NCBI GenBank assembly: GCA_040752335.1
Contig: JBFMEV010000008.1
Location: forward strand, 3,272-67,271
Source of the DNA: Chloroflexota bacterium
Lineage (GTDB): Bacteria; Chloroflexota; Limnocylindria; Limnocylindrales; CSP1-4
Length of the DNA stretch: 64,000 nt
Direction: 5' to 3'
Positions 45,414-61,281 of this stretch are shown in pieces. The position numbers and the translations under genes are program-made. Below the pieces are notes generated by a model. That model saw nothing but the letters and a program-made list of their open reading frames with translations, did not search any database and had not been told where the DNA came from. The stretch's first letter is position 1, and each line of letters begins with the position of its first letter.

Positions 45414-45436
45414 GCCGCCAGGGCGGCCGACGACCG

Positions 45437-47535: not shown

Positions 47536-47545
47536 GGTTCGCGCG

Positions 47546-47887: not shown

Positions 47888-47888
47888 G

Positions 47889-48272
47889 GTGGCCGACTTC
47901 CAAGCGGTCGAGGCGCGGCTGCGGCGGATCCTGGAGCCGTATAGGGGCGAGCTGACGGTGACGAAGGACGGACCCGAGGGCATGGTCCTCGAGCTGCCCG
48001 GCTATGAGGGCAAGCCGTGGGGCTACGTCGCGGGCACGAAGATCAACAGGCGTTACGTCAGCTTCCACCTCATGAGCGTCTACGCCGACCCAGAGCTCGT
48101 GGCCTCGATGTCACCGGGATTGCGCCGGCGCATGCAGGGCAAGTCGTGCTTCAACTTCACGACGATCGACGAGCCGCTCTTCGCCGAGCTCCAGGCCGTC
48201 GCGGCAAAGGGCATTGCCCGCCACCCGGCGATGGTCGAGCAGGCGCTCGCCCGCGACCGGAGGCGCCGCTGA
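47889..48272 (+). CDS. Small alpha/beta protein, DUF1801/YdhG-like (paralog 2)
   Basis: MADFQAVEARLRRILEPY…KSCFNFTTIDEPLFAELQAV… This is a tandem paralog of 47546-47887. Confidence 0.55.
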   Translation: MADFQAVEARLRRILEPYRGELTVTKDGPEGMVLELPGYEGKPWGYVAGTKINRRYVSFHLMSVYADPELVASMSPGLRRRMQGKSCFNFTTIDEPLFAELQAVAAKGIARHPAMVEQALARDRRRR

Positions 48273-48429
48273 CGAGCTCCGCCGCTACACCTCGGCCATG
48301 CCGTCCCTCGCCGGCGGAACGCTACGTCGTCACGGCTGACGCGACGCCTCTGCCCGGGTCGAGCTCAGAGCTTCGACGGTCGGCGCGATCATGGCCGAAC
48401 ACCACTCGGTCGGAGGCTCCGGTGGTCCG

Positions 48430-48933
48430 TCACCGCGCCCTGCCCGCCATTTCGGACTGTAGCAAGATCGCCGCGAGGAGCGCGCCGCCAAGCGCGACGT
48501 CGATCACGACCCCTGCAGCGATGGCGGGCCCGAAGGCGTCGCCGAGCTCCAAGCCGAGGCCCAGGAAAGGCGAGACGGTTGCGGCGACAGCGAGCCCGAT
48601 CACCGCCGCAATGCATGCGACGATGAGCCCGATCGCCAGCGCGACTCCGAGAATCTGGATGTGTTCGCCACGGGTCGCAATGGTGTCGCCCACGCCGATG
48701 ATCGCCACGACGCCGATCGCCGCGCAGAGGCCGGTGCCGACAGTCGCGGCGGGCCACAGCATGACCGCGACCCCGAACATTGAACCAAGGTCGTCGGGCA
48801 CGGTGCCGCCGACCGCCTGGATCGCCACGAGCCATAAAGTCGTCGGGATCGTCCCGGCGGCGAGCGCCTTGCCTGCGATTCTCAGATGTGCTCGCACTGG
48901 CACCTCCCAACCCTGCACGGTCAATGGCGACAA
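48430..48933 (-). CDS. Hypothetical polytopic membrane protein, antisense to the surrounding operon
   Basis: 4-5 hydrophobic Gly/Ala/Ile/Val-rich helices. The overlapping + frame (read-through from 48017) translates to Ser/Pro/Thr/Ala-rich shadow sequence. TTG start, uncertain. Confidence 0.45.
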   Translation of the reverse strand: MSPLTVQGWEVPVRAHLRIAGKALAAGTIPTTLWLVAIQAVGGTVPDDLGSMFGVAVMLWPAATVGTGLCAAIGVVAIIGVGDTIATRGEHIQILGVALAIGLIVACIAAVIGLAVAATVSPFLGLGLELGDAFGPAIAAGVVIDVALGGALLAAILLQSEMAGRAR

Positions 48934-49186
48934 GACGCTCGAAGCGACGAGACGTTACCGACTGGCCACGCGCGGAGTCGCAGCTCCGTCGCCGATCGCG
49001 GTCAACTCTGCCCGGGGTGCCTCATCGGCGGCCAGCTACCCGAAGCGGGTGACGGCGACTGCGCGATACATCGTCGGCGATGAGCGGGGGTGCGAACATG
49101 CCTTCGAGCGGCGCGAGATCCCGTGATCCGCGAGATTGTCGCAAACTTGCCTGCATGTGTGACACCTCGACCGGAGGAACCTGATC

Positions 49187-50650
49187 GTGGCCAAGGTGAC
49201 GATGCCCCAGCTCGGCGAGAGCGTGGCCGAGGGGACGATCGGCAAGTGGCTCAAGCAGCCCGGCGACCATGTCGACAAGTACGAGCCGCTCCTCGAGGTC
49301 ATCACCGACAAGGTCAACGCCGAGGTCCCGTCGCCGTTCGAGGGCACGCTCACCAAGATCCTGGTCGAGGAGGGAGCGACCGTCCCGAACAACGCCGAGA
49401 TCGCGGTCATCGAGGAGGCCGGCGCGGGGAGCGGGACATCTGCCGCCGTCGCTTCCGTTCCTCCGAGAGCCGCCGCACCGGGAGCCCCCACTGAGGCCGC
49501 GCCGAAGCCGGCTCCGGCGGAGCCTCGTGAACCGGCCCCGGCGCCGACCACACCCGCGCCGACTCCACCCACCCCGGCCCCGGCCCACGGCCCTGCCGGT
49601 TCCGACGAGCGCGCTCTCCACGAGCTACCTGGTAACGCCGACGCGCGGATGACCCCAGCCGTGCGCCGTCTCCTCCGCGAGCACGGCCTGACCGCAGCCC
49701 AGATCGTGGGCACCGGCGGCGGCGGCCGGATCACCCGCGAGGACGTGACCGACTACGTCGAGTCGCAGCGGACGGGCAAGCCGGTGGGCCGGCAGGATGC
49801 CACCGGGGCCGCCACTGGCGCAGCGGCCGTGACCGCCCCCGCGGCACCCGGCGCCGCACCCGGAGTCGCCGCCGCCCCGCGAACGGCGCCTGCCGCCCCC
49901 GCATCAGCGACGACCGCGGCGGGCATCGTCTTCCCTGCCGGCGCGGACGAGGTCCTCGTCCCGATGACCCAGATGCGGAAGGGCATCGCCGCCCAGATGA
50001 CGCGGGCCCTTCAGGTTCCGCACGCCTACGTCCAGATGGAGGTCGACGTCACCAACCTGGTCCGCTTCCGGGACCGGAACAAGAAGGACTTCCAGGCCCG
50101 CGAGGGCGTCTCTCTCAGCTTCGTGCCCTTCGTCGTGAAGGCCTCGGCCGAGGCCCTCAGGCGCAACCCGACCTTCAACGCCCACTGGACCGAGAACGGC
50201 CTGCTGGCCAAGCGCCGCGTGAACATCGGCATCGCCGTGGCCCTCGCCGACGGGCTCATCGTCCCGGTGATCCGCGACGTCGACGGCCTCTCGATCGCCG
50301 GCATCAACCGGGCGATCGCCGAGGTCTCCGACCGCGCGCGAGCGAACAAGCTCCGGATCGATGACTTCGGCGGCGGGACGTTCACCGTCGACAACACCGG
50401 CTGGCTCGGCACGAACCTGGTCATGCCGATCATCAACGTCCCCGAGGTCGGGATCGTGACCATGGACCGGATCACGAAGCGAGCGGTCGTCGTCGAGACG
50501 CCCGACGGTGACGTCATCGCCGTGCGCTCGATCATGAACATGGTCCTCGGCGTCGACCATCGGGCCAACGACGGCGCCGGCGGCGCCGCGCTCCTCCGCG
50601 ACATCAAGGCCTGGCTGGAGGGCGTGGGTCCCGACACGGCGATCTACTAG
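49187..50650 (+). CDS. Dihydrolipoamide acyltransferase (E2)
   Basis: The lipoyl domain is …LLEVITDKVNAEVPSP… There are Ala/Pro linkers. The subunit-binding domain is …TPAVRRLLREHGL… The catalytic motif is DHRANDGA. GGAGGA lies upstream of the GTG start. Confidence 0.92.
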   Translation: MAKVTMPQLGESVAEGTIGKWLKQPGDHVDKYEPLLEVITDKVNAEVPSPFEGTLTKILVEEGATVPNNAEIAVIEEAGAGSGTSAAVASVPPRAAAPGAPTEAAPKPAPAEPREPAPAPTTPAPTPPTPAPAHGPAGSDERALHELPGNADARMTPAVRRLLREHGLTAAQIVGTGGGGRITREDVTDYVESQRTGKPVGRQDATGAATGAAAVTAPAAPGAAPGVAAAPRTAPAAPASATTAAGIVFPAGADEVLVPMTQMRKGIAAQMTRALQVPHAYVQMEVDVTNLVRFRDRNKKDFQAREGVSLSFVPFVVKASAEALRRNPTFNAHWTENGLLAKRRVNIGIAVALADGLIVPVIRDVDGLSIAGINRAIAEVSDRARANKLRIDDFGGGTFTVDNTGWLGTNLVMPIINVPEVGIVTMDRITKRAVVVETPDGDVIAVRSIMNMVLGVDHRANDGAGGAALLRDIKAWLEGVGPDTAIY

Positions 50651-50680
50651 GCGCCGTCTCGCGGTCGAGATCGGCGTCCC

Positions 50681-51676
50681 GTGACCGAGCCCCGGAAGCC
50701 GAGGCGGTCCAGCCGCATCGCCGTCACCGGCGCCGCCGGCTTCGTGGGCCGGTACGTCGTCCGGCGGCTCCACGAGCGCGGCGACCAGGCCGTCGCGATC
50801 GTCCGCGAAAAGGGACGCGCGACCTCGATCACCGACCTCGTGGCGGAGGGCCTCGATCTCATCGAGGACGACCTCTCCGAACCCGCGCGCCTGGCCGAGC
50901 ACCTCCGCGACGCCGACGGCGTGGTCCACGCGGCCGGGCGGTACGCGGTCGGCATCCGCCCCGACGAGCGCGACGCGATGTGGGACGCCAACGTCGGGGC
51001 CACGACCGCGGTCCTGGATGCCGCCGAGGCATCCGGCGTTCCGCGGATCGTGTACGTCTCGACCTGCGGCGTCTTCGGCGACACCCGCGGCGAGATCGTC
51101 GACGAGTCGTACCGGCGCGACCTCCGCGACGGCTTCGTGTCGTGGTACGACGAGACGAAGTACGACGCACACGAGGTCGCCGAGCTACGGATCCGGGCGG
51201 GGGCGCCGATCGTCATCGTCCTGCCGAGCCAGGTCTACGGGCGGGGCGATCACTCGGATGTCGGCCACGTGCTCCGCCGCGCTGCGGCGGGTCGTCTTCG
51301 CTCCGCCGCCCTCGACGACGTCGGCCTCGGCTTCGTCCACGTCGAGGACCTGGCGACGGGCATCGTCGCGGCCCTCGACCTCGGCCGGGTCGGCGAGGCC
51401 TACGTCCTCAGCGGCCCGACGGCTCGCCTGCGCGAGGCGATCGAGGTCGCGGCCGCCGTCGGCGGCCACTTGCCGCCGCGACTCCGGATCCCGACCGGCC
51501 TCCTCCGTGCTCTCGCGCCGATCGGCGGGCTCATCGGCCGGCCCGGCCTGCGCGAGATCGTCAGCGCCGGGGCCGGTGTCACGTACTGGGCGTCGGCCGC
51601 AAGGGCCCACCGTGAGCTCGGCTTCAGCCCGCGGGGTCTCGAGCAGGGCTTCCGCGACACGTTCACGGGGGCCTGA
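50681..51676 (+). CDS. NAD-dependent epimerase/dehydratase-family (extended SDR) protein
   Basis: VTGAAGFVGRYVV is the Rossmann GxxGxxG motif. …YDETKYDAH… is the YxxxK motif. Confidence 0.82.
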   Translation: MTEPRKPRRSSRIAVTGAAGFVGRYVVRRLHERGDQAVAIVREKGRATSITDLVAEGLDLIEDDLSEPARLAEHLRDADGVVHAAGRYAVGIRPDERDAMWDANVGATTAVLDAAEASGVPRIVYVSTCGVFGDTRGEIVDESYRRDLRDGFVSWYDETKYDAHEVAELRIRAGAPIVIVLPSQVYGRGDHSDVGHVLRRAAAGRLRSAALDDVGLGFVHVEDLATGIVAALDLGRVGEAYVLSGPTARLREAIEVAAAVGGHLPPRLRIPTGLLRALAPIGGLIGRPGLREIVSAGAGVTYWASAARAHRELGFSPRGLEQGFRDTFTGA

Positions 51677-51692
51677 CTACACTCGACGCGAG

Positions 51693-52760
51693 ATGACCGC
51701 TCGCGAGCTCCCGATGTTCCAGCCCCAGGGGACGGGGCACGTTCACGGCCCGCACGACCCGATCTCGATCGCGATGGGCGGCGGCGGGCTGGCGGCGGTC
51801 CCGGGACTCATGGCCGCGGATGGCACGGCACCGCGCCGCCATCCCGACTGGATCAAGGCCCGGATGCCCGCCGGCGAGACGTACCACGACCTCAAGCGCC
51901 GGCTGCGGGGCCTCAACCTCAACACGGTCTGCGAGGAGGCCCATTGCCCCAACATCGGGGAGTGCTGGGATCAGCGGACCGCCACGATCATGATCCTGGG
52001 CGACACCTGCACCCGGGCCTGCGGTTTCTGCAACATCAAGACCGGCCGGCCCACCTGGTTCGACGACGACGAGCCGCGCCGGGTCGCCGAGGCCCTCGAC
52101 GGCCTCGGCCTGGACCACGTGGTCGTGACCTCGGTCGCCCGCGACGACCTGCCCGACGGCGGCGCCCACGTCTTCGCCGAGACGATCCGTGCGATCCGCG
52201 GGCGGATCCCGGGCATGGGCGTCGAGGTCCTCATCCCCGACTTCAACGGCGCCGAGGCGCCGCTGCGCGAGGTCATGGCCGCCGGGCCGGACATCCTCAA
52301 CCACAACCTCGAGACCGTCCGGCGGCTCCAGAAGCCGGTCCGCAAGCGGGCCCGCTGGGATCGGACGCTCGGTGTCCTGGAGCGGGCCAAGGCGTATGCC
52401 GCCGAGTACGGCCGAGAGGCCCACACGAAGAGCTCGCTGATGGTCGGCCTGGGCGAGACCCGCGCGGAGATGACCGAGGCCTTCGAGGCCCTCCGCGAGG
52501 TCGACGTCGACATCCTCACGATCGGGCAGTACCTCCGCCCCTCGGAGCGGCACCTCCCTGTCGAGCGCTACTACCACCCCGACGAGTTCGCCGAGATGAA
52601 GGCCGAGGCCCTCGCCCTCGGCTTCCGACACGTCGAGTCCGGGCCGCTCGTTCGCTCCAGCTACCACGCTCGGGACCAGGTGCCGGGCGCCGAGCTGCGT
52701 GCCCTCCGCCGCCGCGCGACGCTCGACGCCGACGGCCGGGTGGTCCCGCTCGCGGGCTGA
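51693..52760 (+). CDS. lipA: Lipoyl synthase
   Basis: CEEAHCPNIGEC is the auxiliary cluster. CTRACGFC is the radical SAM cluster. …SSLMVGLGET…SSYHA… is also present. Confidence 0.93.
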   Translation: MTARELPMFQPQGTGHVHGPHDPISIAMGGGGLAAVPGLMAADGTAPRRHPDWIKARMPAGETYHDLKRRLRGLNLNTVCEEAHCPNIGECWDQRTATIMILGDTCTRACGFCNIKTGRPTWFDDDEPRRVAEALDGLGLDHVVVTSVARDDLPDGGAHVFAETIRAIRGRIPGMGVEVLIPDFNGAEAPLREVMAAGPDILNHNLETVRRLQKPVRKRARWDRTLGVLERAKAYAAEYGREAHTKSSLMVGLGETRAEMTEAFEALREVDVDILTIGQYLRPSERHLPVERYYHPDEFAEMKAEALALGFRHVESGPLVRSSYHARDQVPGAELRALRRRATLDADGRVVPLAG

Positions 52761-53072
52761 CGCCCGCCGCCGCGCCGCGCGGCTACGCCCCAGCGCGAGG
52801 CGCAGCTCGTCGGCAAAGCCGCGGTTGCAGGCGCCCTCGCTCGCGCCCTTCGCGATCACGACCGTCACGACGCTCTGGTGCGCGCCGACCGGCACGGATC
52901 CGCCTGCCGCCCGGTAAGCAAGGCCGGTGCCGCCCCCGCGGGTCGCCGACCGTGACGGGTCCGGTCTCAGACAACCCGAGGACGTGCGCCCCCTGCTACA
53001 AGGTGACTCCCACGACAGGGTTGCCCTCCTGAGTCCGGCCGCATAGCTCGCAACCCAGGCATGCGAAAGCGA

Positions 53073-55421
53073 TTAGCTCGTTGGGTCGACGACGAAGTAG
53101 CTGAAGCCCGTGTCGCCCACGACCGGCCCCGTGAGGTGGACGGTGAACGAATTCGCCGCCCACTCGATCCACGAGACAGCGACGGCGGCGCCCGGGTTCT
53201 GATACAGGGAAACGCTCACGTGGCTGTTCGCGGCGGGAACGGCGACCGACGCGGCCGACTCGCCGGCCAGGATCGTGCCAAAGCCAACGGTGCTGAACCG
53301 CACTCGGCCCTGGGCATGAATCGCCGCGCCCGACCCGCCGCCGGAGCGGACCGCGACGATCGCGTCGCCGTCGCCGTCGTCCTTGCGCTCGGCGATCAGC
53401 GCCGCGCCGACGCCACCCTCGCTCCGAATCGCGACGAGCCCGTTGCCGGGCGTCGAGGTCCTCCGCTCGATCACAGCGGCCGGGTGCCCGCCCGGAGAGG
53501 TCGACTCGCTGATCGCCCCCAATGCCCAGCCGTCGCCGTCACCGGACCTCCAGGTCAGCACCCCGTGACCGCCGCCGGGGCCCTCACGTGATGCGGTCAG
53601 CGCTTCGCCGCCGCCGCCGTCCGTTCGAGTCGCCCGGATTGCGCCACCCGGTGCAGAGCCGGATCGCGTCGCCAGCAGCGCGTCCGCGTAGTCAGGATGG
53701 GTGCTGGAGTTGTGCGCCTCGAGCGCCAAGCCGTGGCCCTCGCCGGTCCGGATGACAACGGCCCCATGACCGGGACCAGAGCCTTCCCGGATCGACGTCA
53801 GGCCGCTGCCCGCTCCTTCCTCGGTCCGAGTGGTGTAGACGCCATCCCCCTCGCCCGATCCCGAGCGGTTGGTCCAGATGGCATTGCCAGCACCCTCGTT
53901 CATGCGGTGAGCAGCGACGGCCATCCCGAACGCCGACCCTACGCGGAAGGCTTCTAGGCCGTTTCCGTTCTCTCCATCGTGCCAGGCACGAACACCCGCA
54001 CCCTCGCCACTCCCATGGCGCTCCCCGGTCACGCCCTGGCCGGGGCCGCCGTCGTTGCGCGACGCGGCGAGCCCGTCCCCGTAGCCGGGGCCCTCACCGT
54101 AGCGCTCGGTATGGATCGAATGCCCCAAATCCTCGTCGCCACTTCGGTTCGCGTACATGGCGTTGCCAGGCCCGCCTTGCTCCCGGAACGCGATGATGGC
54201 GTTGCCGTGGCCCGATCCTCGTCGGAAGGCTTCGACGCCGTTGCCGATGCCGTCGTCGTTGCGTTCGCCGACGACGCCTGAGCCAGCACCCGAAGCAGTC
54301 CGAGCGCCGATGACGCCATGTCCGGGTCCGCCGCCGCTGCGATGGCCGCGGATCGCGTCGCCGTAGACGACGTCGCCGTTCCGGTCGGCAACGAGCGCAT
54401 GGGTGTCGTTGTCGGTCTCGTCGTCTCCCTCGCGGAGGGCATATATCGAGTGCCCGGGGCCGCCCGATTCCCTGGATGCATAGAGGGCATTCCCGCCGCC
54501 GGTTCCCCGACGGTGGGCTTCGATACCGTCACCATTGCCGTTGTCGGTCCGATCGCTGACGAGGCCCGCGCCATCCCCCAGCCCTGACTTGATCGTCGAG
54601 AGGCCGTGGCCGAACTCGTCGCCGTCACGATGGGCGTGGATCGCGTCGCCGGGCCCGCCGGGCTCGCGAAACGCGGTGATGGCGTCTCCGCCGCCCTCTC
54701 CGAGCCGATGGCCACGGATTGCTGCCCCGCCACCCGACCCCTCCCGGAAGGCTGCGACCGCGTCGCCCGCATCGCCGTCGTGGTAGGCGTGGACGCCGTC
54801 GCCCTGGCCGGTGCCATGTCGAGCGCCGCTGACTCCGTGCCCATCGCCGCCGTCCCAGCGTTCGCCGAGGACCGCATCGCCGTACGTCGGTGCGTCTCCG
54901 TACCGGACGCCGAGGACGCTGGAGCCGTCGCCGCTGCTCGAGTTGATCGAGGTGACGCCGTCGCCTCCACCGGTGTTGCCCTTCTCGACGTACAGGCCGC
55001 TCCCAGCGGCCTCCTGGTTCTGGTTCAAGTGGATGGCATCGCCTCGACCGTAGCCGTCGATGACTGCCAGGATTGCATGGTCGTCGCCGGTGTCAGCGGC
55101 GCCGCTCCGGTAGACGCTGATCGCGCTCCCCGGCGCGTTCGTGTTCTTCTCGGCGAGGATCGCCTCCCCGCTCCCGGTGCTCAACGCATGGAGAGCCGGA
55201 TCGGCATCGTTCGTTGTGAATGTCGCCGTCGGTGGTCCCGGAGGGAAGGCGAGCACTGCCGCGGGACCTGTCAGGGCCATGGCGGCGGCACCGGCGCCGG
55301 CACCCGCCACCGTTGCCAGGAACGCGCGTCGATCGCGCGGCGAATCGCTCGCGGCGGGTTGACTCGTGGGTTGCGCGTCGACCTCGTCTGGACGCGGCGC
55401 AGTACGCAGGACGCGGGACAT
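53073..55421 (-). CDS. Tat-signal secreted protein made of about 45 tandem 13-residue Gly/Arg/His repeats plus a conserved C-terminal domain (no family recognised)
   Basis: The twin-arginine signal is SPRDRRAFLATVAGAGAGAAAMALTGPAAVLA. The repeats follow G-[DNH]-[GA]-[IVL]-x-[AG]-x-R-x-G-x-G-x. The C-terminus reads …FTVHLT…FSYFVVDP. GGAGGG lies 7 nt upstream of the ATG at 55421. Confidence 0.8.
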   Translation of the reverse strand: MSRVLRTAPRPDEVDAQPTSQPAASDSPRDRRAFLATVAGAGAGAAAMALTGPAAVLAFPPGPPTATFTTNDADPALHALSTGSGEAILAEKNTNAPGSAISVYRSGAADTGDDHAILAVIDGYGRGDAIHLNQNQEAAGSGLYVEKGNTGGGDGVTSINSSSGDGSSVLGVRYGDAPTYGDAVLGERWDGGDGHGVSGARHGTGQGDGVHAYHDGDAGDAVAAFREGSGGGAAIRGHRLGEGGGDAITAFREPGGPGDAIHAHRDGDEFGHGLSTIKSGLGDGAGLVSDRTDNGNGDGIEAHRRGTGGGNALYASRESGGPGHSIYALREGDDETDNDTHALVADRNGDVVYGDAIRGHRSGGGPGHGVIGARTASGAGSGVVGERNDDGIGNGVEAFRRGSGHGNAIIAFREQGGPGNAMYANRSGDEDLGHSIHTERYGEGPGYGDGLAASRNDGGPGQGVTGERHGSGEGAGVRAWHDGENGNGLEAFRVGSAFGMAVAAHRMNEGAGNAIWTNRSGSGEGDGVYTTRTEEGAGSGLTSIREGSGPGHGAVVIRTGEGHGLALEAHNSSTHPDYADALLATRSGSAPGGAIRATRTDGGGGEALTASREGPGGGHGVLTWRSGDGDGWALGAISESTSPGGHPAAVIERRTSTPGNGLVAIRSEGGVGAALIAERKDDGDGDAIVAVRSGGGSGAAIHAQGRVRFSTVGFGTILAGESAASVAVPAANSHVSVSLYQNPGAAVAVSWIEWAANSFTVHLTGPVVGDTGFSYFVVDPTS
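53307..55175 (-). repeat. In-frame 39-bp periodic coding repeat array (degenerate)
   Basis: The 13-aa period is visible over about 620 residues. An example run is GDAVAAFREGSGG/GAAIRGHRLGEGG/GDAITAFREPGGP/GDAIHAHRDGDEF/GHGLSTIKSGLGD. Confidence 0.8.
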
Positions 55422-55809
55422 TGCCAGACCCTCCACTCCGTATCGCTTGGTCTGGCCGGTAGACGCGCCGAGCCGTTATGCATTACGGCCGCGGGCGAAG
55501 CCGGCGAGCCCGCGATATCAGGCCGGGGTCAGGCCTCCAGCGCGGGCAAGGTCGCTCGCGACACCCCCCGGCCGGGCTCCGGATCGCGCATGTGTATCAC
55601 CCGGGCCTCTCCGTGTCACCAGGTTTCGCAGAGTCCGGTGCCCGGACGCACCACCCCCGCTCGTTGCGGAGCACTGACCGGGCAAGCGAACCGACCCACG
55701 CGGGGAAGCGACTATGCCATCGGGCGCGGCCCGTCCGTCCGCGTGGCTCCGGGTGCGTATAGGACCGCGCGCGGGCTGACCGCCAGAGGTGGCCGATCTG
55801 CCCGGAGCC

Positions 55810-56523
55810 TCAGCTGCCCGACTTCAGGGCCGCCAGCCGAGCGTCGACCTCGAGCTCGTCCTCCGCCGAGTCGAGCGAGGCGAACTGCTCTTCGAGCGAG
55901 GAGGCCGAGACCTCCTCCATCCCGCGGACCATCGCCTCCTGGCGCCGGACGTTCTCCTCGAAGCGCGAGATCTCGCTCGTGGGGTCCATGACCGAGACGC
56001 TCTTCATCGTCTGCTGGACCTGGGCCTGGGCGCGGGCCATCTTGGCCCGGCTGACGAGCTCGTCGCGCTTCTGGACGAGCTCCTCGCGGCGGACGCGAAG
56101 CTTGTTGAGGCCGTCCTTGAGCTTGTTCGCCAGCTCGGTCTGCTGGGCCGCCTGCGTCTCGAGGGTCTTCGCCTGCTCCTCGTAGCTGATCTGGCGGCGG
56201 AGGGCGATCTTCGCGAGCTCGTCGAAGCGGTCAGCCTCGGTGGCGTTGCCGCCGCTCCGCAGTTCGTCCGCCCGCCGCGACGCCGCTGCGGCCTTGCCGC
56301 CCCACTCGGTGACGGCCTCGCGGGCCTCGCGGGCGTCGTCCTCGACGAGGCGAAGGTTGCCGATCGTCTGGGCCACGGCCTCCTCGGCCTCGGCCATGTT
56401 GTTCGTGTAGTCGCGGACCAGCTGGTCGAGCATCTTCTCGGGGTCCTCGGCGCTGTCGAGGATCGCGTTGACGTTCGCCCGGATGAGCTGGCCGATCCGG
56501 CCGAGGATCGACGACTGAGCCAT
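55810..56523 (-). CDS. pspA: PspA/IM30 (ESCRT-III-like membrane-remodelling) protein
   Basis: The N-terminus is MAQSSILGRIGQLIRANVNAILDSAEDPEKMLDQLVRDY…, followed by a long coiled coil. AAGGAGG lies 5 nt upstream of the ATG. Confidence 0.92.
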   Translation of the reverse strand: MAQSSILGRIGQLIRANVNAILDSAEDPEKMLDQLVRDYTNNMAEAEEAVAQTIGNLRLVEDDAREAREAVTEWGGKAAAASRRADELRSGGNATEADRFDELAKIALRRQISYEEQAKTLETQAAQQTELANKLKDGLNKLRVRREELVQKRDELVSRAKMARAQAQVQQTMKSVSVMDPTSEISRFEENVRRQEAMVRGMEEVSASSLEEQFASLDSAEDELEVDARLAALKSGS

Positions 56524-56587
56524 GCCTACCTCCTTCGGGGTGCTGCCCCGCGAAGCCTACCTGCCTGATGGATCGAGATGGCCCGGC

Positions 56588-58657
56588 TCACCACCGGCCG
56601 CCCCGCGAATGCCCGCCGCCGCCCCCGCCGAAGCCACCGCCCCGGCTGTGGCCTCCGCCGCCCCAACCGCCGCCGCCCCCGCCCCCAGACGGGCCGGATG
56701 AGCCCCACGGCGAGCCGCCCCAGCCGCCGCCATGGTGGCCGCCGCCGGACAGGATCCCGCCGATGATGCCGCCGAGGATCGCCCCGGCGATATCCGACCC
56801 GCCACCGCCCCGCGTGGGGCTCGGCCCACCGCGGTCCCACTTATCGAAGTCCGAGGCCGCGAGCGCGTACGCCTCCTCGGCCAGTCGTTCCGCGCGCTTG
56901 GAGTGCTCCATCGCCGCCGCGGGGTCGGCGTCGCGGAGGCGGACCGCGGTCTCGAGTGACCGCTCGGCCTCGGCCAGCCGCGTTCGGGCCCGGCGCCCGA
57001 CGCCGCCCCGGCGGGTAGCGATGAAGTCGGATGCCCGGTCGACGTCGGCCGCGGCCGCAGCCAGCGACGCGTTCAGCGCGGCCGCGAACTGGGCCCGCTG
57101 CTCGGCGTCACGGCGAACGGCGGCGAGGGCCTCGCCCGCACCACGTCGGGCCGTGGCCGCGAGTCTGATGGCTCCCAGCGGGTCGCGCGGCGTGGTGGTC
57201 GCGGCCGCCGTCGCGGCGCGGAGGGCATCCGCGGCCGCGTCGAAGCTGGCCGGAACCGCCGGCGCCACGCCGGAGGCCGAGGTCGCGGCGCGAAGACCAC
57301 CCCTCGCCGCGGCGAGGTCGGCGTCGGCCGCCCGGAGCTCGTCGGCCAGCTTCGACTCGGCCTCGCGGACCGAGGCAGCCAGCTTGTCGATGGCATCGAG
57401 GAGCTTGGTCGCGCCGGCGATCCCCTCCTGGGCCGTGACGATCTCGCGGGCGGCGGTCCGCCCGTTGCCCTTGGCCGCCGCCGCCAGCCCGCGCTCAATG
57501 GCGGCCCGGGCCCCGGTCAGGCCCTTGCGGGCCTCGGCGGCGTTGCCGATCACGGGGCCCCACGTCGACTCCGCATAGCCGCGGAGCTCGCCGAGCGTCG
57601 ACTCGGCGCCAGGCAGGTGGCGCTCCTGGGCCTCGACGAGCGCCGGCAGGCCGGCCAGGATCGTCGGGGCATTGCGCTCCAGGTTGCGGAGTTCGTCGAT
57701 CCGGGCGGCCTGGCGGTCGAGGGCGGCCCCGGCCCGGCTGCAGCGGGAGACGATCTCGTTGAGCATCGCCTCACGGGTCGGCGGGTCCTCGGGCTCGGCA
57801 TCGTCGAGCTTCTGGCGGACCCCGAACGCCGCGCGGAGCTCGTCGCGGGCCTCGGCGATCGCTGCCCGGAAGGGCTTCGCCTCGGCCTCCCCGTACTCGG
57901 CCTCGACAAAGCCGGCCTCCTGATCGGCGGTCCGGGTGCGCTCGTCGACGGCGATGAGCATCGAGTTCGCCTCGCGCGCGAGCCTGCCGGTCCGCCGATC
58001 GCGCTCCTCCGCCTCGCGCCACCTCCCAACCCGGGATGCCAGCCAGGCGCCAAGGATGACGACGCCGCCGCTGACGAGGACGAAGCCGACGATGATGCCG
58101 AGATCAAGGCCGCCACTCGCGGCTCCGCCGCCATCGTCAGCGGGCGGCTCGGTCGCAACCGGGGTGGGTTCCGCGGTCGGGATCACTTCGGGCTCGGACG
58201 CCTTGCCGAGCCCTCCGGCGGTCGCGATCGCCGCGCCCGCGACGTCACCGTCGCGGAGGGCCGGCTCGAGGGTGTCGGAGATGATCGAGTCGAGCTCGAG
58301 GTCGGTGATCTCGTCGTCGAGGCGGTCGGAGACCCAGATCGCATCCGTCCGGTCCCCCATCGCCACGACCAGCAGCGCGTCATCGGCGCCGAGCGAATTC
58401 AGCCGGGCGGTCTCGTCAGCGAACTCGGTGACCGTCAGGTCGTCGGTGGTGTCGACGAACAGGACGAAGAGCTGGACGCCGTGCTCGTCGAGGAGGTCGG
58501 CAAGGGCCGCCTCGACGGCATCGACCTCGCCGCCGAGGGCGTCGACCTGGTCCGTGACGGCCCCGTCGAGCCGGGGCGGGGCGGCCGCCAGCACGCCGGT
58601 CGCACACGCGAACGCGAGGCCGATGGCGAGGAGCGAGGGGATTCGAAGGGTTCGCAT
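56588..58657 (-). CDS. TPM-domain membrane protein with a roughly 430-aa cytoplasmic helical region and a Gly-rich tail
   Basis: Signal peptide, then a TPM fold (…VTDQVDALGG…LFVLFVDTT…ALLVVAMGDRTDAIWVSD…). One TM helix (IIVGFVLVSGGVVILGAWLA). A long Ala/Arg/Glu-rich helical segment. The tail reads GGHHGGGWGGSPWG…GGGGGGHSRGGRW. Confidence 0.85.
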   Translation of the reverse strand: MRTLRIPSLLAIGLAFACATGVLAAAPPRLDGAVTDQVDALGGEVDAVEAALADLLDEHGVQLFVLFVDTTDDLTVTEFADETARLNSLGADDALLVVAMGDRTDAIWVSDRLDDEITDLELDSIISDTLEPALRDGDVAGAAIATAGGLGKASEPEVIPTAEPTPVATEPPADDGGGAASGGLDLGIIVGFVLVSGGVVILGAWLASRVGRWREAEERDRRTGRLAREANSMLIAVDERTRTADQEAGFVEAEYGEAEAKPFRAAIAEARDELRAAFGVRQKLDDAEPEDPPTREAMLNEIVSRCSRAGAALDRQAARIDELRNLERNAPTILAGLPALVEAQERHLPGAESTLGELRGYAESTWGPVIGNAAEARKGLTGARAAIERGLAAAAKGNGRTAAREIVTAQEGIAGATKLLDAIDKLAASVREAESKLADELRAADADLAAARGGLRAATSASGVAPAVPASFDAAADALRAATAAATTTPRDPLGAIRLAATARRGAGEALAAVRRDAEQRAQFAAALNASLAAAAADVDRASDFIATRRGGVGRRARTRLAEAERSLETAVRLRDADPAAAMEHSKRAERLAEEAYALAASDFDKWDRGGPSPTRGGGGSDIAGAILGGIIGGILSGGGHHGGGWGGSPWGSSGPSGGGGGGGWGGGGHSRGGGFGGGGGGHSRGGRW

Positions 58658-58725
58658 GTTCCCGGTTCGGGCGGGCAGGGTACGGGGACCCGTCAATCGT
58701 ATTCGGGAACGCCCGGACGGACAGA

Positions 58726-58758
58726 GACGCTCGGCCCGAACGAGTTGGGCCGAGCGTC
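58726..58758 (-). terminator. Strong hairpin terminator after the 435-aa repeat-protein gene
   Basis: GACGCTCGGCCC-(9 nt)-GGGCCGAGCGTC is a 12-bp perfect stem. It ends 43 nt downstream of the stop at 58801 (minus-strand sense). Confidence 0.6.
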
Positions 58759-58800
58759 AGTCTCGATCGGTTGGCGGCCGCCCCCCCGGCCGACCGCCGA

Positions 58801-60108
58801 TCAAGCGGGATCGACGATGAAGTACGAGAAGTCGACGGGATTCGTCGCCGGGCTCGTGAGGTGGACGGTGAAGCTGACCCCAGGAACGCGAGTGACGTAG
58901 GCCACGCTCGCCCCGGCGTCGCCGAGCAGCGTCACCGAAACGTGGCTCGCGCCGCCAACCATCGCGGTCGCGATGGTGGCGCTGCTCTCGGTGGCACCGA
59001 TCGACCCCGAGCCGACCGAGGCGAACCGTGAGCGACCCTCGACGAGCAGCCCGAGTTCGCCGACGGCGTGAACGGCCGCGCCTGGCCCGGCTTCCCGGCG
59101 GGCGAACAGCGCATCGCCCTCCGCGCTCCCGTCATGGTGGCCGAACAGAGCGAAGCCGGTCCCGTCATCGTGCTTGTACGCGGCAACGGCGGAACCGTGT
59201 CCGGAACCGGTGCGATCCGAAATGATCGCGTCACCCTCACCAGCGCCGCTCCGGCTGGCCTCAATCGCATGGCCGGGCGCGGTGCTGTCGTTCTCGCCCC
59301 GGAGCCCGGTCCCGCCGCCGCCGCCGGTGCGGATGGCTCGCAGGCCTGCGCCAGGTGAGTCGCCGTAGCGGACACCCAGGATGGCGTCCGCGTACTCGCC
59401 GACATCGCTGTGGTTGTGGGCCTCGAGGGCAGAGCCGTGGCCCTCGGGGTTCCGCATGACAAAGGCGCCGTGGCCGAACCCGGGACCCTCACGGATGGCG
59501 ACCACGCCGCTCCCGGTCCCCTCTCCCGTCCGGGTCAGGTACGCCCCGTCACCCTCACCGGCACCCGATCGGTCGGTCCAGACGCCGTGGCCGCCGCCGT
59601 CGTCCATCCGGTGGGCGGCGATGGCCTGCCCGTACGACGGACCGACCCGGAACGCCGAGAGCCCCTCACCAGCGTCGCCGTCGTGCCAGGCGCTCACCGC
59701 GTCGCCAGAGCCGGTGTCATGGCGCTCGCCACTGACCCCGTTGCCCGACCCGGAGCCAAACCGCAGCCCGGCGATCCCCGGACCCGCGCCTTCGTCAAAG
59801 TGCGCCCCGACCACGCCGGAGCCTTCGCCGTTGCCGGAGCGCTCGCCCCAGACGCCGTCGCCGTTGGAGCCCGTGCTGACGCCCTTCAGGCCCGGGCCGG
59901 TGGCGGTATTGATCCCCGTGAGCGCCGGGTCATCGTCGTGGCTTGTGAACGTGGGGTTCGGGGGTCCCTGCGGCACGGCGAGCGCCGCGGCCGGCACCGC
60001 GAGGGCGACCGCGGCGGCGCCTGCGCCAGCCCCGGCCACGGCCGCGAGAAACGCCCGTCGATCCTTGCCCTGCCTCTGCGTGTCGGGGCTGTCTGTTCGC
60101 TCCATCAC
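58801..60108 (-). CDS. Tat-signal secreted 13-residue-repeat protein, shorter paralog of 53073-55421
   Basis: The signal is GKDRRAFLAAVAGAGAGAAAVALAVPAAALA. It has about 21 repeats of the same type. The C-terminus reads …FTVHLT…FSYFIVDPA. GGAGGA lies upstream of GTG 60108 / ATG 60105. Confidence 0.8.
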   Translation of the reverse strand: MMERTDSPDTQRQGKDRRAFLAAVAGAGAGAAAVALAVPAAALAVPQGPPNPTFTSHDDDPALTGINTATGPGLKGVSTGSNGDGVWGERSGNGEGSGVVGAHFDEGAGPGIAGLRFGSGSGNGVSGERHDTGSGDAVSAWHDGDAGEGLSAFRVGPSYGQAIAAHRMDDGGGHGVWTDRSGAGEGDGAYLTRTGEGTGSGVVAIREGPGFGHGAFVMRNPEGHGSALEAHNHSDVGEYADAILGVRYGDSPGAGLRAIRTGGGGGTGLRGENDSTAPGHAIEASRSGAGEGDAIISDRTGSGHGSAVAAYKHDDGTGFALFGHHDGSAEGDALFARREAGPGAAVHAVGELGLLVEGRSRFASVGSGSIGATESSATIATAMVGGASHVSVTLLGDAGASVAYVTRVPGVSFTVHLTSPATNPVDFSYFIVDPA

Positions 60109-60225
60109 CGATGTCCTCCTTGGACGCCTAGCTCAGATTCAGGACGCGATCGCGTCGCGAGCGTTACAGCGGAAGACGTACCGGCGGGTCGCCCCGGCTC
60201 TGCTCGACCCCGTATCCTTCGGGCT

Positions 60226-61281
60226 ATGGTCCGCCACCTGTCCCGGTCGATCCCGCTGGCCGAGCTCCACTGCCATCTCGGCGCGGCGGTGACGCCGGCG
60301 ATCATGTGGGGCATCGCCCACTCCCAGGGCATCAAGCTCCCGACCAAGGACTACTGGGAGTTCCGCGAGCTCATCACGGTCAAGCCCCACGGCACGAAGT
60401 CGTTCGACGGCTACCTCCAGCTCTTCCACTGGACCGAGCTCATCCAGAGCTCGCCGCTGGCGGTCGAGCGGAGCGTGTACGAGGTCGTCGGCGGGGCCTA
60501 CCGGAAGAACAACGTCACGACGATGGAGCTCCGCTTCAACCCCATGAAGCGGAACCGGGGCGGCGAGCAGGACCTCGATCACATCATCGCCGCGGCGACA
60601 CGGGGCATGGACCGGGCGAGCCTCGAATACCCGATCAAGCCGGGCCTGATCTTCTGCCTCGACCGGGCCTTCCCGTACGAGCTCAACGAGATCATCGTGG
60701 AGAAGGCGATCGCCTGGCGCGATCGCGGCGTCGTCGGCGTCGACATCGCCGGTCCCGAATCGAGCACCTTCCGGGTCGCCGAGTATCGCAAGCTGTTCCG
60801 CCGCGCTCGCCAGTTTGGGCTCGGGATCACGGTCCACACCGGCGAAGCCGGCCCGGTCGAGGAGGTCGCCCGCGTCGTCGAGCTCCTGGAGCCCGATCGG
60901 ATCGGCCACGGCGTCAAGGCCGCCTACGACCCCCGGGCGATGGCGATGATCCGGGAGCGGGGCATCGTCCTCGAGATCTGCCCGACCTCGAACCTCAACA
61001 CGAAGGTCGTCTCGGGTTGGGATGAGATCCGCTGGATCTTCGACACCTTCCGCCGCAATGGCGTCCGATTCACGATCTCGACTGACGGGCCGGAGATGCT
61101 CAAGACCTACATCCGGGACGAGCTGGCGACGCTCGGCCGGCTGGGGATCCTGTCGGTCGAGGAGCAGGAGCAGGCGGCCGCGACCGCGATGGCCGCGTCC
61201 TTCGTCCCGAACGTCTCCGACGTCCCGCTGCCCGCCCGCCCGCCGGCGACCCGCGAGGCCGTGGAGCGCGAAGAGGCATAG
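60226..61281 (+). CDS. Adenosine/adenine deaminase-family metallohydrolase
   Basis: LAELHCHLG is the HxH metal site. …GVDIAG…, …ITVHTGE… and …ISTDGP… are present. Confidence 0.85.
   Translation: MVRHLSRSIPLAELHCHLGAAVTPAIMWGIAHSQGIKLPTKDYWEFRELITVKPHGTKSFDGYLQLFHWTELIQSSPLAVERSVYEVVGGAYRKNNVTTMELRFNPMKRNRGGEQDLDHIIAAATRGMDRASLEYPIKPGLIFCLDRAFPYELNEIIVEKAIAWRDRGVVGVDIAGPESSTFRVAEYRKLFRRARQFGLGITVHTGEAGPVEEVARVVELLEPDRIGHGVKAAYDPRAMAMIRERGIVLEICPTSNLNTKVVSGWDEIRWIFDTFRRNGVRFTISTDGPEMLKTYIRDELATLGRLGILSVEEQEQAAATAMAASFVPNVSDVPLPARPPATREAVEREEA

What the first reader, a model, noticed from the sequence alone, without database searches (positions are those of the whole stretch)
53073..55421. Tat-signal protein built almost entirely from about 45 tandem 13-residue Gly/Arg/His repeats; I cannot place the repeat type in a known family
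A textbook twin-arginine signal (DRRAFLATVAG…AVLA) is followed by about 620 residues that follow a strict 13-aa period. The consensus is G-[D/N/H]-[G/A]-[I/V/L]-x-[A/G/T]-x-R-x-G-x-G-x. An example run is GDAVAAFREGSGG, GAAIRGHRLGEGG, GDAITAFREPGGP, GDAIHAHRDGDEF.

Three positions are conserved in each unit:
- one buried hydrophobic residue;
- an almost invariant Arg at position 8;
- frequent His/Asp.

The period does not match the solenoid repeats I know. RTX is a 9-mer (GGxGxDxUx). YadA-head repeats are 14-mers. Ice-nucleation repeats are 16-mers. Pentapeptide and hexapeptide repeats are shorter.

A Tat signal implies the protein is folded, possibly with metal or cofactor bound, before export. 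The regular His/Asp/Arg ladder could then be a metal-, anion- or cell-wall-polymer-binding surface.
Basis: partly seen in the sequence, partly recalled or inferred. Interest (0 to 1): 0.8.

Follow-up and report, generated by a model that had tools for sequence, protein, structure and literature searches.

The report
Tat-exported 13-residue-repeat fibre protein
This is a real gene for a secreted, rod-like protein built from 46 copies of an undescribed 13-residue strand-and-turn repeat and ending in a phage-tailspike-like domain; a shorter sister gene lies 3.4 kb away, and the function is not known.

Summary
Of the 46 units, 31 are exactly 13 aa. Identity at lag 13 is z=12.8 against shuffles.

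The gene is real:
- It has orthologues in Limnocylindria-type (Chloroflexota) MAGs and metagenomes, one of them syntenic beside lipA.
- dN/dS is 0.26-0.43.
- A good Shine-Dalgarno sequence precedes the ATG.

The repeat matches nothing in Pfam, NCBIfam, PHROGs or PDB sequences. AlphaFold2 with an alignment (pLDDT 75) predicts one roughly 8-residue strand per unit. Foldseek finds only weak resemblance to beta-helical tailspikes. The CTD resembles the C-terminal beta-sandwich of phage tailspikes and tail fibres (K1-lyase_C, below threshold).

A 435-aa paralogue sits at 58801-60108 (-). A TPM-domain gene and pspA lie between the two copies.

Best reading: a Tat-exported, tailspike-like extracellular fibre whose length varies by whole units. 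The nearest functional analogue is Pantoea WceF. Coil geometry, oligomeric state and ligand are unresolved. I rate it a new variant of a known kind, of moderate interest.

The parts
53073..55421 (-). Gene A: CDS of the 782-aa repeat protein (ATG 55421; an alternative GTG at 55436 gives 787 aa; stop codon 53073-53075)
   Evidence: ORF listing. GC3 is 0.80, above GC1 and GC2. Full-length homologue in L003 at 46% identity. dN/dS 0.26-0.43.
55430..55434 (-). Shine-Dalgarno-like GGAGG, 8 nt upstream of ATG 55421
   Evidence: Read directly from the sequence.
55248..55421 (-). Putative twin-arginine signal peptide, 58 aa. It has a 30-aa n-region, RR at 55326-55331 within DRRAFL, the h-region AFLATVAGAGAGAAAMALTGPAAVLA, and a V-L-A cleavage motif.
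   Evidence: Sequence and hydropathy. The motif is conserved in the paralogue and orthologues. Tat HMMs score only below threshold.
55170..55247 (-). Conserved N-terminal segment of the mature protein (FPPGPPTATFTTNDADPALHALSTGS), a likely N-cap of the repeat stalk
   Evidence: Conserved in L003, L004, L005, P0001, P0006, P0009 and P0011. The cap role is inferred.
53331..55169 (-). Array of 46 tandem units (31 of exactly 13 aa) with consensus G-[DNH]-[AG]-[VIL]-x-[AGTS]-x-R-x-G-x-G-x. It contains an internal duplication of about 270 aa.
   Evidence: Autocorrelation and shuffles. Segmentation and positional counts, with a peak at lag 267. Two blocks of A both align to paralogue B. AF2 predicts one strand per unit.
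53076..53330 (-). C-terminal domain of about 85 aa: a beta-sandwich of the phage tailspike/tail-fibre C-terminal type, remotely similar to PF24146 K1-lyase_C
   Evidence: Most of the 94 relatives match only this part. 23/38 homologous CTDs hit PF24146 below its cut-off, with a best E of 2.9e-7. AF2 pLDDT is above 95. Foldseek against BFVD gives matches at rmsd about 2 A and probability 1.0.
58801..60108 (-). Gene B: a 435-aa paralogue with the same KDRRAFL signal, about 22 units of 13 aa, and the same CTD
   Evidence: CTD profile E=1.2e-28 and repeat profile E=1.2e-55. BLASTP against A gives 45% identity over 360 aa, E=6e-72. Translation.
55810..56523 (-). pspA (PspA/IM30), lying between the two paralogues on the same strand. 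Association is possible but unproven.
   Evidence: Pfam PF04012, E=3.5e-36.
56588..58696 (-). Gene for a TPM-domain membrane protein, between paralogue B and pspA on the same strand
   Evidence: Pfam PF04536, E=1.6e-20. Translation.

Best explanation
Gene A, and its shorter paralogue B, encode a secreted fibrous protein.

**Architecture and export.**
- An RR-type signal directs the protein to the Tat pathway, so it crosses the membrane already folded. The signal is inferred from the motif; export has not been shown.
- The mature 724-aa protein is acidic and has no cysteine. It has a short conserved N-cap, then 46 units of about 13 residues.
- Each unit contributes one beta-strand (positions 1-8) and one Gly-rich turn (positions 9-13). 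This is predicted.
- The strands stack into an elongated beta-solenoid or beta-helix-like stalk.
- Positions 2, 4, 6 and 8 (D/N/H, V/I/L, A, R) face one side. I infer that I/V/L packs against Ala, and Arg8 pairs with D/N/H2, of a neighbouring or opposing strand. This gives a thin core closed by polar pairs at its edges.
- The 8+5 geometry means a turn of the solenoid needs at least two units (about 26 residues).
- The stalk ends in an 85-aa beta-sandwich of the kind that closes phage tailspikes and tail fibres.

**Function (inferred by analogy).**
- It is an extracellular or cell-surface rod that binds, and possibly modifies, a polysaccharide or cell-wall polymer. Pantoea WceF, a Tat-exported tailspike-like protein, does this.
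- The stalk acts as a rigid spacer or binding face. Its length changes by gain and loss of whole units.
For: **The gene is real and conserved.**
- L003 (a Candidatus Limnocylindrales MAG) carries a 694-aa homologue, 46% identical end to end, with indels of roughly one to two units (12-24 residues).
- L004 carries a 451-aa homologue in the same position beside lipA.
- L005 carries a 446-aa homologue.
- dN/dS is 0.26-0.43.

**Signal.** RRxFL plus an A/G-rich h-region plus V-L-A, conserved across the family. There are weak hits to Tat-signal models.

**Repeat statistics.**

**Fold.**
- AF2 on residues 491-787 with a 46-row alignment gives mean pLDDT 74.8. Repeat blocks score 75-84, with strands of 6-8 residues every 13. 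The CTD scores above 95.
- The best Foldseek PDB matches are beta-helical tailspikes (Sf6, Kp9 gp42, K1 lyase) and left-handed beta-helix enzymes, although none reaches E<=1e-3.
- Foldseek against BFVD gives 5 hits at E<=1e-3. They are led by phage proteins annotated K1-lyase_C or pectate-lyase superfamily. CTD-only superpositions reach rmsd about 2 A.

**CTD family.**
- 23/38 CTDs hit PF24146 below its cut-off.
- Relative P0027 joins the same CTD to a pectate-lyase-like N-terminus.
- The unit also occurs in P0064, a phage tail-fibre protein.

**Precedent.** WceF is a bacterial protein with a Tat signal that forms a trimeric tailspike-like exopolysaccharide hydrolase (PMC7949094).

**Fast evolution typical of exposed proteins.** Flanking LipA and adenosine deaminase are 85-91% identical to those in L001 and L004. 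The family protein is only 44-67% identical over its N-terminal 150 residues and CTD.
Against: **Structure.**
- No experiment has been done.
- The AF2 model is of moderate confidence. The other four models score 57-69. Its alignment contains three rows taken from the same protein's other repeats.
- I could not inspect coordinates, so handedness, units per coil and the Arg-Asp pairing are inferences.
- No PDB fold match is significant.

**CTD.**
- The query's own CTD does not hit PF24146.
- The CTD profile does not match the K1 lyase sequence itself by hhalign or any PDB sequence.

**Signal.** Tat HMMs are below their cut-offs.

**Function.**
- There is no conserved gene neighbourhood to hint at a substrate.
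- A very regular stalk without obvious insertions is not what catalytic tailspikes look like.
- GC3 is 0.80, against 0.90-0.96 for the neighbouring genes. This argues against very high expression.
Confidence: 0.45

Rival explanations
1. Same protein, different quaternary structure. The 13-aa units build an intertwined homotrimeric fibre (a triple beta-helix or beta-prism, as in phage needles and tail fibres). Each chain lays one 8-residue strand on a face and then turns a Gly-rich corner. The CTD is the trimerisation cap, and the Tat pathway exports the pre-assembled trimer.
For: - The CTD type occurs at the C-terminus of trimeric phage tailspikes. In K1 lyase, three such sandwiches form a dome at the trimer interface (PMC8822698).
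- The unit occurs in the phage tail-fibre protein P0064.
- WceF is a Tat-signal trimer.
- A strand of 8 plus a turn of 5 suits a prism face plus a corner.
- The only moderate pLDDT of the monomer model would be expected if the true fold is intertwined.
Against: - No multimer prediction could be run.
- The monomer model already gives pLDDT 75-84 for the repeats.
- With only one large hydrophobic residue per unit, a triangular core with 8-residue sides would be poorly filled (inference).
Confidence: 0.25
2. The signal is not cleaved and serves as an N-terminal membrane anchor, as in Rieske proteins. The protein would then be a cell-anchored surface fibre or envelope-layer component rather than a released protein.
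For: - The N-termini of B and of the L005 homologue hit TM_PetC, the Rieske Tat-signal anchor (E=0.004-0.03), and B hits formate_TAT.
- The h-region is long, at 26 residues.
- The protein has no other anchoring motif and no Cys for a lipobox.
Against: - A V-L-A motif followed by a Pro-rich segment is a plausible signal-peptidase site.
- The hits are far below their cut-offs.
- The low GC3 argues against an abundant envelope protein.
Confidence: 0.15
3. The repeat is a metal- or Ca2+-binding beta-roll, an extended RTX-like unit. G10-x-G12-x-G1-D2-x-U4-x resembles GGxGxDxUx. In this reading the D/N/H ladder at position 2 binds ions, which would be the protein's function: metal sequestration or ion-dependent rigidity.
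For: - The motif resemblance can be read from the consensus.
- The mature protein is acidic (pI 5.1, 89 D+E against 50 R+K, 31 His).
- Tat substrates often carry bound cofactors (established knowledge).
Against: - No hit to HemolysinCabind or any other family at E<=10.
- The period is 13, not 9.
- Position 2 is Asp in only 14/46 units.
- RTX proteins fold outside the cell on Ca2+ and leave by type I secretion, the opposite of Tat logic (established knowledge).
- There is no C-terminal T1SS signal. The protein ends in a beta-sandwich instead.
Confidence: 0.08
4. A domesticated phage or tailocin receptor-binding protein, for example a secreted decoy or a remnant of a prophage.
For: The CTD and overall architecture resemble tailspikes and tail fibres. 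The unit is present in one phage tail fibre.
Against: - There are no phage genes nearby. The neighbours are 2-oxoacid dehydrogenase genes, lipA, pspA and adenosine deaminase.
- The position is syntenic in related genomes.
- There are no relatives in IMG/VR or in GenBank phages.
- The protein has a signal peptide instead of a virion-attachment N-terminus.
Confidence: 0.04
5. A spurious ORF in GC-rich DNA that does not code for a protein.
For: GC3 is lower than in the neighbouring genes. Long overlapping ORFs are common in this window.
Against: - Homologues are conserved at the protein level with dN/dS below 0.45.
- Indels between homologues keep the reading frame, and most span about one to two units.
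- A paralogue exists.
- A Shine-Dalgarno motif is present.
- The CTD belongs to a family of more than 75 representative clusters.
Confidence: 0.01

Closest known systems
Pantoea stewartii WceF (bacterial Tat-signal, trimeric tailspike-like exopolysaccharide hydrolase; PMC7949094)
   Same: Both are chromosomal bacterial genes rather than phage genes. Both have an N-terminal twin-arginine signal, an elongated beta-helical body, a C-terminal beta-sandwich, and an overall phage-tailspike look (compared).
   Different: WceF has an irregular right-handed beta-helix with a P22-like head domain and a catalytic groove, and it sits in an EPS operon. Here the body is a highly regular 13-aa repeat with no detectable sequence relation to WceF or any other PDB entry. 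There is no EPS operon. Neither trimer formation nor enzyme activity was tested.
Pfam PF24146 K1-lyase_C (C-terminal beta-sandwich of Klebsiella phage K1 capsule lyase and related phage tail proteins)
   Same: 23/38 CTDs of this family score against it (best E=2.9e-7, about 24-25 bits). The AF2 model's best BFVD match carries this annotation, and CTD-only matches superpose at about 2 A.
   Different: All scores are below the 27-bit gathering cut-off. The window's own CTD gives no hit. The CTD profile does not align to the K1 lyase sequence or to any PDB sequence. Here the domain follows a repeat stalk in a signal-peptide protein, not a virion protein.
RTX nonapeptide beta-roll (GGxGxDxUx, PF00353)
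   Same: Both have a Gly-rich turn followed by Asp, then a short strand with one buried aliphatic residue. Both are two-sheet solenoids built from half-turn units (by inference for this protein).
   Different: The period is 13 rather than 9. Arg8 is nearly invariant. Asp is not conserved (14/46). There is no HMM hit. The protein has an N-terminal Tat signal instead of a C-terminal T1SS signal.
Short-coil beta-solenoids and adhesin repeats (YadA-head 14-mer, insect antifreeze 12-13-mers, hexapeptide left-handed beta-helix)
   Same: All have short, regular units with one buried hydrophobic residue and Gly at the turns. Left-handed beta-helix enzymes appear among the weak Foldseek matches.
   Different: No family HMM matches. 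The protein has no Cys, whereas the insect antifreeze coils are disulfide-braced (own knowledge; for the absence of Cys). The predicted 8-residue strands are too long for a 13-residue coil.
Sister proteins with the same CTD but a 10-residue Gly-rich period (e.g. P0018, P0020, P0037, P0047)
   Same: They share the Tat-type RR N-terminus, the Gly-rich repeat body and the same CTD.
   Different: Their repeat period is 10, not 13, and they lack the Arg8 signature. All are unannotated 'hypothetical proteins'.

Membership tests
Twin-arginine (Tat) signal peptide | S/T-R-R-x-F-L-K-like motif between a polar n-region and the h-region | tested here: met
   D-R-R-A-F-L-A at residues 30-36 of the ATG-start protein. 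The same motif occurs in paralogue B and in L003, L004 and L005. About 30 of the 94 relatives carry an RR motif in their first 70 residues.
Twin-arginine (Tat) signal peptide | Weakly hydrophobic h-region followed by an A-x-A-type cleavage site | tested here: met
   The 26-residue A/G-rich stretch has a mean Kyte-Doolittle value of 1.6 and ends V-L-A before FPPGPP. Cleavage itself was not tested.
Twin-arginine (Tat) signal peptide | Score above the curated cut-off of TIGR01409 / PF10518 | tested here: not met
   TIGR01409 scores 9.4 bits against a 16.7 cut-off. PF10518 gives no hit for A. formate_TAT gives E=4e-4 for B, and TM_PetC gives 0.004-0.03; all are below their cut-offs.
Twin-arginine (Tat) signal peptide | Tat-dependent export of the folded protein | not testable with these tools
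   This needs RR-to-KK or tat-mutant export assays.
PF24146 K1-lyase_C (tailspike C-terminal beta-sandwich) | HMM score at or above the gathering cut-off (27 bits) | tested here: not met
   The window's CTD gives no hit at E<=1. 23/38 homologous CTDs hit at E<=1, with a best E of 2.9e-7; the two full-length relatives scored individually reach about 24-25 bits.
PF24146 K1-lyase_C (tailspike C-terminal beta-sandwich) | Same fold as the C-terminal domain of phage tail proteins of this family | tested here: inconclusive
   The top Foldseek BFVD hit is annotated K1-lyase_C (E=1.1e-4). Several CTD-only matches reach rmsd 1.9-2.9 A at probability 1.0. Against PDB, K1 lyase 7w1c scores only E=0.4, and hhalign to its sequence is negative.
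RTX / HemolysinCabind beta-roll | Tandem nonapeptides GGxGxDxUx with a conserved Ca-binding Asp | tested here: not met
   The period is 13. Asp occupies the equivalent position in 14/46 units. No PF00353 hit at E<=10.
RTX / HemolysinCabind beta-roll | C-terminal type I secretion signal and no N-terminal signal peptide | tested here: not met
   An N-terminal RR signal is present and the C-terminus is a folded beta-sandwich.
Known short-repeat solenoids (YadA head 14-mer, ice-nucleation 16-mer, pentapeptide, hexapeptide left-handed beta-helix, PbH1 right-handed beta-helix) | Match to the family HMM and the family's period | tested here: not met
   0 Pfam and 0 NCBIfam families at E<=10 for the whole protein. 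The period of 13 differs from all of them. Caveat: HMMER's composition filters can suppress weak hits in Gly-rich sequence.
Bacterial tailspike-like secreted enzymes (WceF type) | Tat signal plus a beta-helical body plus C-terminal sandwich domain(s) | tested here: inconclusive
   The signal motif is present. The predicted body is strand-turn stacked and resembles beta-helices only weakly (TM 0.25-0.31, E>=0.03). The CTD resembles that of tailspikes.
Bacterial tailspike-like secreted enzymes (WceF type) | Homotrimer with polysaccharide-degrading activity | not testable with these tools
   No multimer prediction or assay was available.

The most novel reading that the evidence does not exclude
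The 13-residue unit defines a previously undescribed beta-solenoid or fibre architecture.
- A thin core is built from one aliphatic residue and one Ala per strand.
- The core is closed at its edges by a continuous Arg8-(Asp/Asn/His)2 ladder.
- The rod assembles in the cytoplasm, possibly as a trimer, and is exported by Tat as a rigid rod more than 100 A long.
- The two paralogues that flank pspA and the TPM-domain gene would form a functional unit, in which PspA buffers the membrane stress of exporting such cargo.
Probability: 0.25. Interest if true: 0.75.

Novelty: new variant of a known kind. Interest (0 to 1): 0.5.

Why it matters
If the prediction holds, this is a new sequence family of beta-solenoid or fibre repeats. 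It has an unusual, nearly invariant Arg in every rung. It also adds a second, unrelated example (after WceF) of bacteria exporting a tailspike-like rod through the Tat pathway.

It would be a useful test case in two ways:
- How long and how rigid a folded cargo Tat can carry.
- How solenoids without disulfides or metal ions hold together a very thin core.

Whole-unit length variation suggests an exposed, fast-evolving surface molecule in Limnocylindria-type Chloroflexota, a lineage known here only from MAGs and metagenome contigs. Family members run from 126 to 787 aa at one syntenic position, and the protein diverges far faster than its neighbours.

It does not by itself open a long-standing question, and its function remains inferred.

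Tried and rejected
**Searches that found nothing or too little.**
- The word-indexed homologue search failed twice, with the full protein and with the last 221 aa. This was probably because Gly-rich words saturated the 8000-candidate list. With the CTD alignment it returned only 10 proteins.
- The first GTDB scan, with the whole protein, found nothing. A tighter CTD alignment found one MAG locus.
- Exact look-ups of protein A (both start codons) and of PspA found no contig. The source genome is not in the collection.
- PDB by sequence: only adiponectin at E=0.002 with 8-bit segments, which I judge to be chance. The CTD profile and the 4-unit repeat profile gave nothing.
- Neither IMG/VR nor GenBank phages by tblastn hold relatives.
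- Rfam over 52700-60300 gave nothing. Promoter and terminator scans were uninformative.
- Two literature searches, for the repeat and for Limnocylindria with Tat, returned nothing.

**Structure work that did not settle the question.**
- Single-sequence AF2 of the whole protein was useless (pLDDT 35).
- hhalign of the CTD profile against the K1 lyase C-terminus was negative.
- Mutual information between adjacent units was meant to distinguish stacking models. The top pair was position 6 with position 4 of the next unit (z=6.1), followed by position 5 with position 3 (z=5.6) and by in-register pairs. With 128 non-independent unit pairs this cannot discriminate, and I set it aside.
- An overlapping-window repeat alignment was slid out of register by MAFFT and discarded.

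**Hits rejected as low-complexity coincidences.** P0013, a eukaryote-like 1386-aa protein, and P0093 both carry other 13-mers.


Full report
**1. The observation**

The minus-strand ORF 53073..55436 is present (787 aa from the first GTG). Five codons downstream, ATG 55421 is preceded by GGAGG at an 8-nt spacing.

Base composition by codon position fits this frame. GC1/2/3 is 0.72/0.60/0.80, and the overlapping ORFs have the wrong pattern. GC3 is nevertheless lower than in neighbouring genes, which reach 0.90-0.96.

The periodicity is real:
- Residue identity at lag 13 is 0.25 in the repeat region. Composition-preserving shuffles give 0.105 +/- 0.011 (z=12.8).
- Segmentation gives 46 units over residues 90-702. 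Of these, 31 are exactly 13 residues and the rest are 11-18.
- Key positional counts are G1 43/46, A/G3 40/46, V/I/L4 41/46, R8 33/46 and G12 26/31.
- His is not positionally fixed.

TRF finds no 39-bp repeat in the DNA, so the units are ancient and diverged.

There is higher-order structure as well. Autocorrelation peaks at lags 93 and 267. Two blocks of A (153-424 and 444-780) both align to the shorter paralogue. Gene A is therefore an internally duplicated version of an array of about 21 units.

**2. Is it a gene, and whose?**

An exhaustive HMMER search of 1.84 billion cluster representatives found 94 relatives at E<=1e-3. None was a full-length match closer than 50%.

Most relatives match only the last 85 residues or so. 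A handful (P0001-P0005, P0007, P0008) are 240-400-aa proteins with the same 13-aa units and the same C-terminal domain; the full-length ones (P0003, P0004, P0005, P0008) also have an RR-type N-terminus. All are unnamed or 'hypothetical'. One is from a Candidatus Limnocylindria MAG.

Locus scans then found:
- a 694-aa homologue in a Candidatus Limnocylindrales MAG (L003), 46% identical end to end, with gaps of roughly one to two units (12-24 residues);
- a 451-aa homologue (L004) beside lipA, as in the window;
- a 446-aa homologue (L005).

A third syntenic locus (L001) retains only a 126-aa ORF, essentially the C-terminal domain alone.

Pairwise dN/dS is 0.26-0.43. The flanking LipA and adenosine deaminase are 85-91% identical between the window and L001/L004. 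The family protein is only 44-67% identical over its N-terminal 150 residues and CTD.

So this is a genuine, fast-evolving gene whose length varies by whole units. It most likely lies in a Limnocylindria-class Chloroflexota genome. That taxon is inferred from the nearest relatives, because the source genome itself is not in the collections.

**3. Anatomy**

*(a) Signal.*
- The n-region is 30 aa, followed by D-R-R-A-F-L.
- The h-region is a 26-residue Ala/Gly-rich stretch ending V-L-A.
- The motif is conserved in the paralogue and in the orthologues.
- Curated Tat models score only below threshold: TIGR01409 gives 9.4 bits against a 16.7 cut-off, formate_TAT gives E=4e-4 for the paralogue, and TM_PetC gives 0.004-0.03.

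I accept Tat targeting as likely, not proven. An uncleaved anchor remains possible.

*(b) N-cap.* The conserved segment FTTNDADPALxAxSTGSG is shared across the family.

*(c) Repeat array.* Described in section 1.

*(d) C-terminal domain (CTD).*
- At least 75 representative clusters share it.
- The domain is attached to different bodies: 13-aa repeats, 10-aa Gly-rich repeats, or a pectate-lyase-like region in P0027.
- 23 of 38 CTDs hit Pfam PF24146 (K1-lyase_C) just below its cut-off, though the window's own CTD does not.

The mature protein is 724 aa, with pI 5.1, 22% Gly and no Cys.

**4. Fold**

Single-sequence AF2 failed (pLDDT 35).

With a 46-row alignment for residues 491-787, the best model has mean pLDDT 74.8. 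Three rows of that alignment came from other parts of the same array, which is a caveat. In the model:
- repeat blocks score 75-84;
- there is one strand of 6-8 residues (positions 1-8) every 13 residues, with 5-residue turns;
- the CTD is a six-strand sandwich at pLDDT above 95.

Against the PDB, Foldseek finds nothing at E<=1e-3. The best matches are beta-helical tailspikes (Sf6, Kp9 gp42, K1 lyase) and left-handed beta-helix enzymes, at TM 0.1-0.3.

Against BFVD there are five hits at E<=1e-3. They are led by phage proteins annotated K1-lyase_C or pectate-lyase superfamily, and by Gordonia phage minor tail proteins. Many CTD-only matches superpose at about 2 A.

The CTD profile does not match the K1 lyase sequence by hhalign or any PDB sequence. 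The relation is therefore remote and mostly structural.

Three inferences follow from the pattern:
- Positions 2/4/6/8 (D/N/H, V/I/L, A, R) share one strand face. Positions 1/3/5/7 (G, A/G, variable, variable) share the other.
- An 8-residue strand cannot be closed into a coil by a 5-residue return. One unit cannot be one coil; two units (about 26 residues) per coil, or an intertwined trimer, is needed.
- In either arrangement, I/V/L4 would meet A6, and R8 would meet D/N/H2, of the partner strand. That would explain why Arg is nearly invariant.

I could not inspect coordinates, and a mutual-information test between units was inconclusive.

**5. Surroundings**

A profile scan of the six-frame translation revealed a second family member at 58801-60108 (-). 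It is 435 aa, with the signal KDRRAFLAAVAGAGAGAAAVALA, about 22 units and the same CTD. It is 45% identical to A over 360 aa.

Gene order on the minus strand is B, then a TPM-domain membrane protein, then pspA, then A. The cluster is flanked by adenosine deaminase and lipA.

In L004 and L001, a single family gene lies between adenosine deaminase and lipA, with no pspA or TPM-domain gene. The L004 protein is B-like at its N-terminus (67%) and A-like in its CTD (65%). This fits a local duplication or rearrangement around an inserted pspA pair.

PspA is reported to increase Tat export (PMC6708511, citing DeLisa 2004). The juxtaposition is suggestive, but it is not conserved in the few loci available.

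Other family members sit alone in unrelated housekeeping contexts.

**6. Comparison with what is known**

The repeat matches no family:
- Pfam and NCBIfam gave 0 hits at E<=10.
- PHROGs gave none at E<=0.1.
- PDB sequence searches gave nothing.

It is not an RTX repeat: the period is wrong, Asp is not conserved, and the secretion logic is the opposite. It is also not a YadA-head, ice-nucleation, penta- or hexapeptide repeat.

The closest functional analogue is Pantoea WceF, a chromosomal, Tat-signal, trimeric tailspike-like exopolysaccharide hydrolase (PMC7949094). The architectural idea is shared, but there is no sequence relation.

The 13-aa unit also occurs, in 4-6 copies, in P0064. That protein is a phage tail fibre by its N-terminus and its genomic context. 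This supports the view that the unit is a fibre-building module.

**7. Verdict**

Best explanation (confidence 0.45): a Tat-exported, tailspike-like extracellular fibre, with a stalk of stacked 13-aa strand-turn units and a tailspike-type C-terminal sandwich. It probably binds or modifies a surface or matrix polymer.

The main rival concerns quaternary structure, namely an intertwined trimer. Metal binding, a membrane-anchored form and a phage-derived decoy are less likely. A spurious ORF is excluded.

Novelty: new variant of a known kind. Interest: moderate (0.5).

Noticed in passing
window 58801-60108 (-): A second, shorter family member (435 aa). It has the same RR signal, about 22 units of 13 aa and the same C-terminal domain, and it is 45% identical to gene A over 360 aa. 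It has no Pfam or NCBIfam hit above a curated cut-off and was not part of the finding.
   Followed up: yes
window 55810-58696 (-): pspA and a 702-aa TPM-domain membrane protein lie between the two paralogues on the same strand. The TPM-domain protein has a signal-like N-terminus, an Ala-rich middle and an extreme Gly-rich tail (GGGGGGWGGGGHSRGGGFGGGGGGHSRGGRW). Related genomes have a single family gene at this site and no pspA or TPM-domain gene. A link to Tat export stress is possible but untested.
   Followed up: partly
window 53331-55169 (-), protein residues 153-424 and 444-780: Gene A carries an internal duplication of about 270 aa (about 20 units). There is also a weaker block periodicity of about 7 units (93 aa), visible as runs of Gly and then Ala at unit position 3. 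The repeat hierarchy is therefore 13 aa, about 93 aa and about 267 aa.
   Followed up: partly
L001 10001-10381 (GCA_975252155.1), syntenic with the window: At the orthologous position beside lipA, this genome keeps only a 126-aa ORF that is essentially the C-terminal domain, with no repeats and no RR signal. It is either a decayed copy or a stand-alone domain. The upstream 488-aa ORF is an unrelated secreted protein.
   Followed up: partly
L006 10001-11332 (ENA ERZ25038451, 51.7-kb contig): P0064 is a phage tail-fibre protein. Its N-terminus hits PHROG tail-fibre families, and a lysozyme gene and a faint terminase-like match lie nearby. It contains 4-6 copies of the same 13-aa unit (GNGVVGNRLSTGE and similar) but lacks the C-terminal domain.
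   Followed up: partly
relatives P0018, P0020, P0037, P0047 and others: Many proteins share the C-terminal domain and an RR N-terminus but carry Gly-rich repeats with a 10-residue period instead of 13. This is a sister architecture, also unannotated.
   Followed up: no
P0093 (262 aa): An unrelated-looking protein has near-perfect 13-aa repeats, GDVVTGERTGDAT. These fit the consensus at G1, D2, V4, G6, R8 and G10. Its origin is unknown, and the match could be convergence or low-complexity coincidence.
   Followed up: no
window 43974-52760 (+): Upstream lies a cluster of 2-oxoacid dehydrogenase genes: E3 at 43974-45413, E1-beta at 46447-47535 and E2 at 49187-50650. An NAD-dependent epimerase (50681-51676) and lipoyl synthase lipA (about 51699-52760) follow. 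lipA is convergent with gene A. The same block is conserved in L001.
   Followed up: partly
window 53073-55436 and 58801-60108: Both family genes have lower third-position GC (0.80 and 0.84) than the surrounding genes (0.90-0.96). This could reflect Gly-codon usage, weaker codon selection or a different evolutionary history.
   Followed up: no
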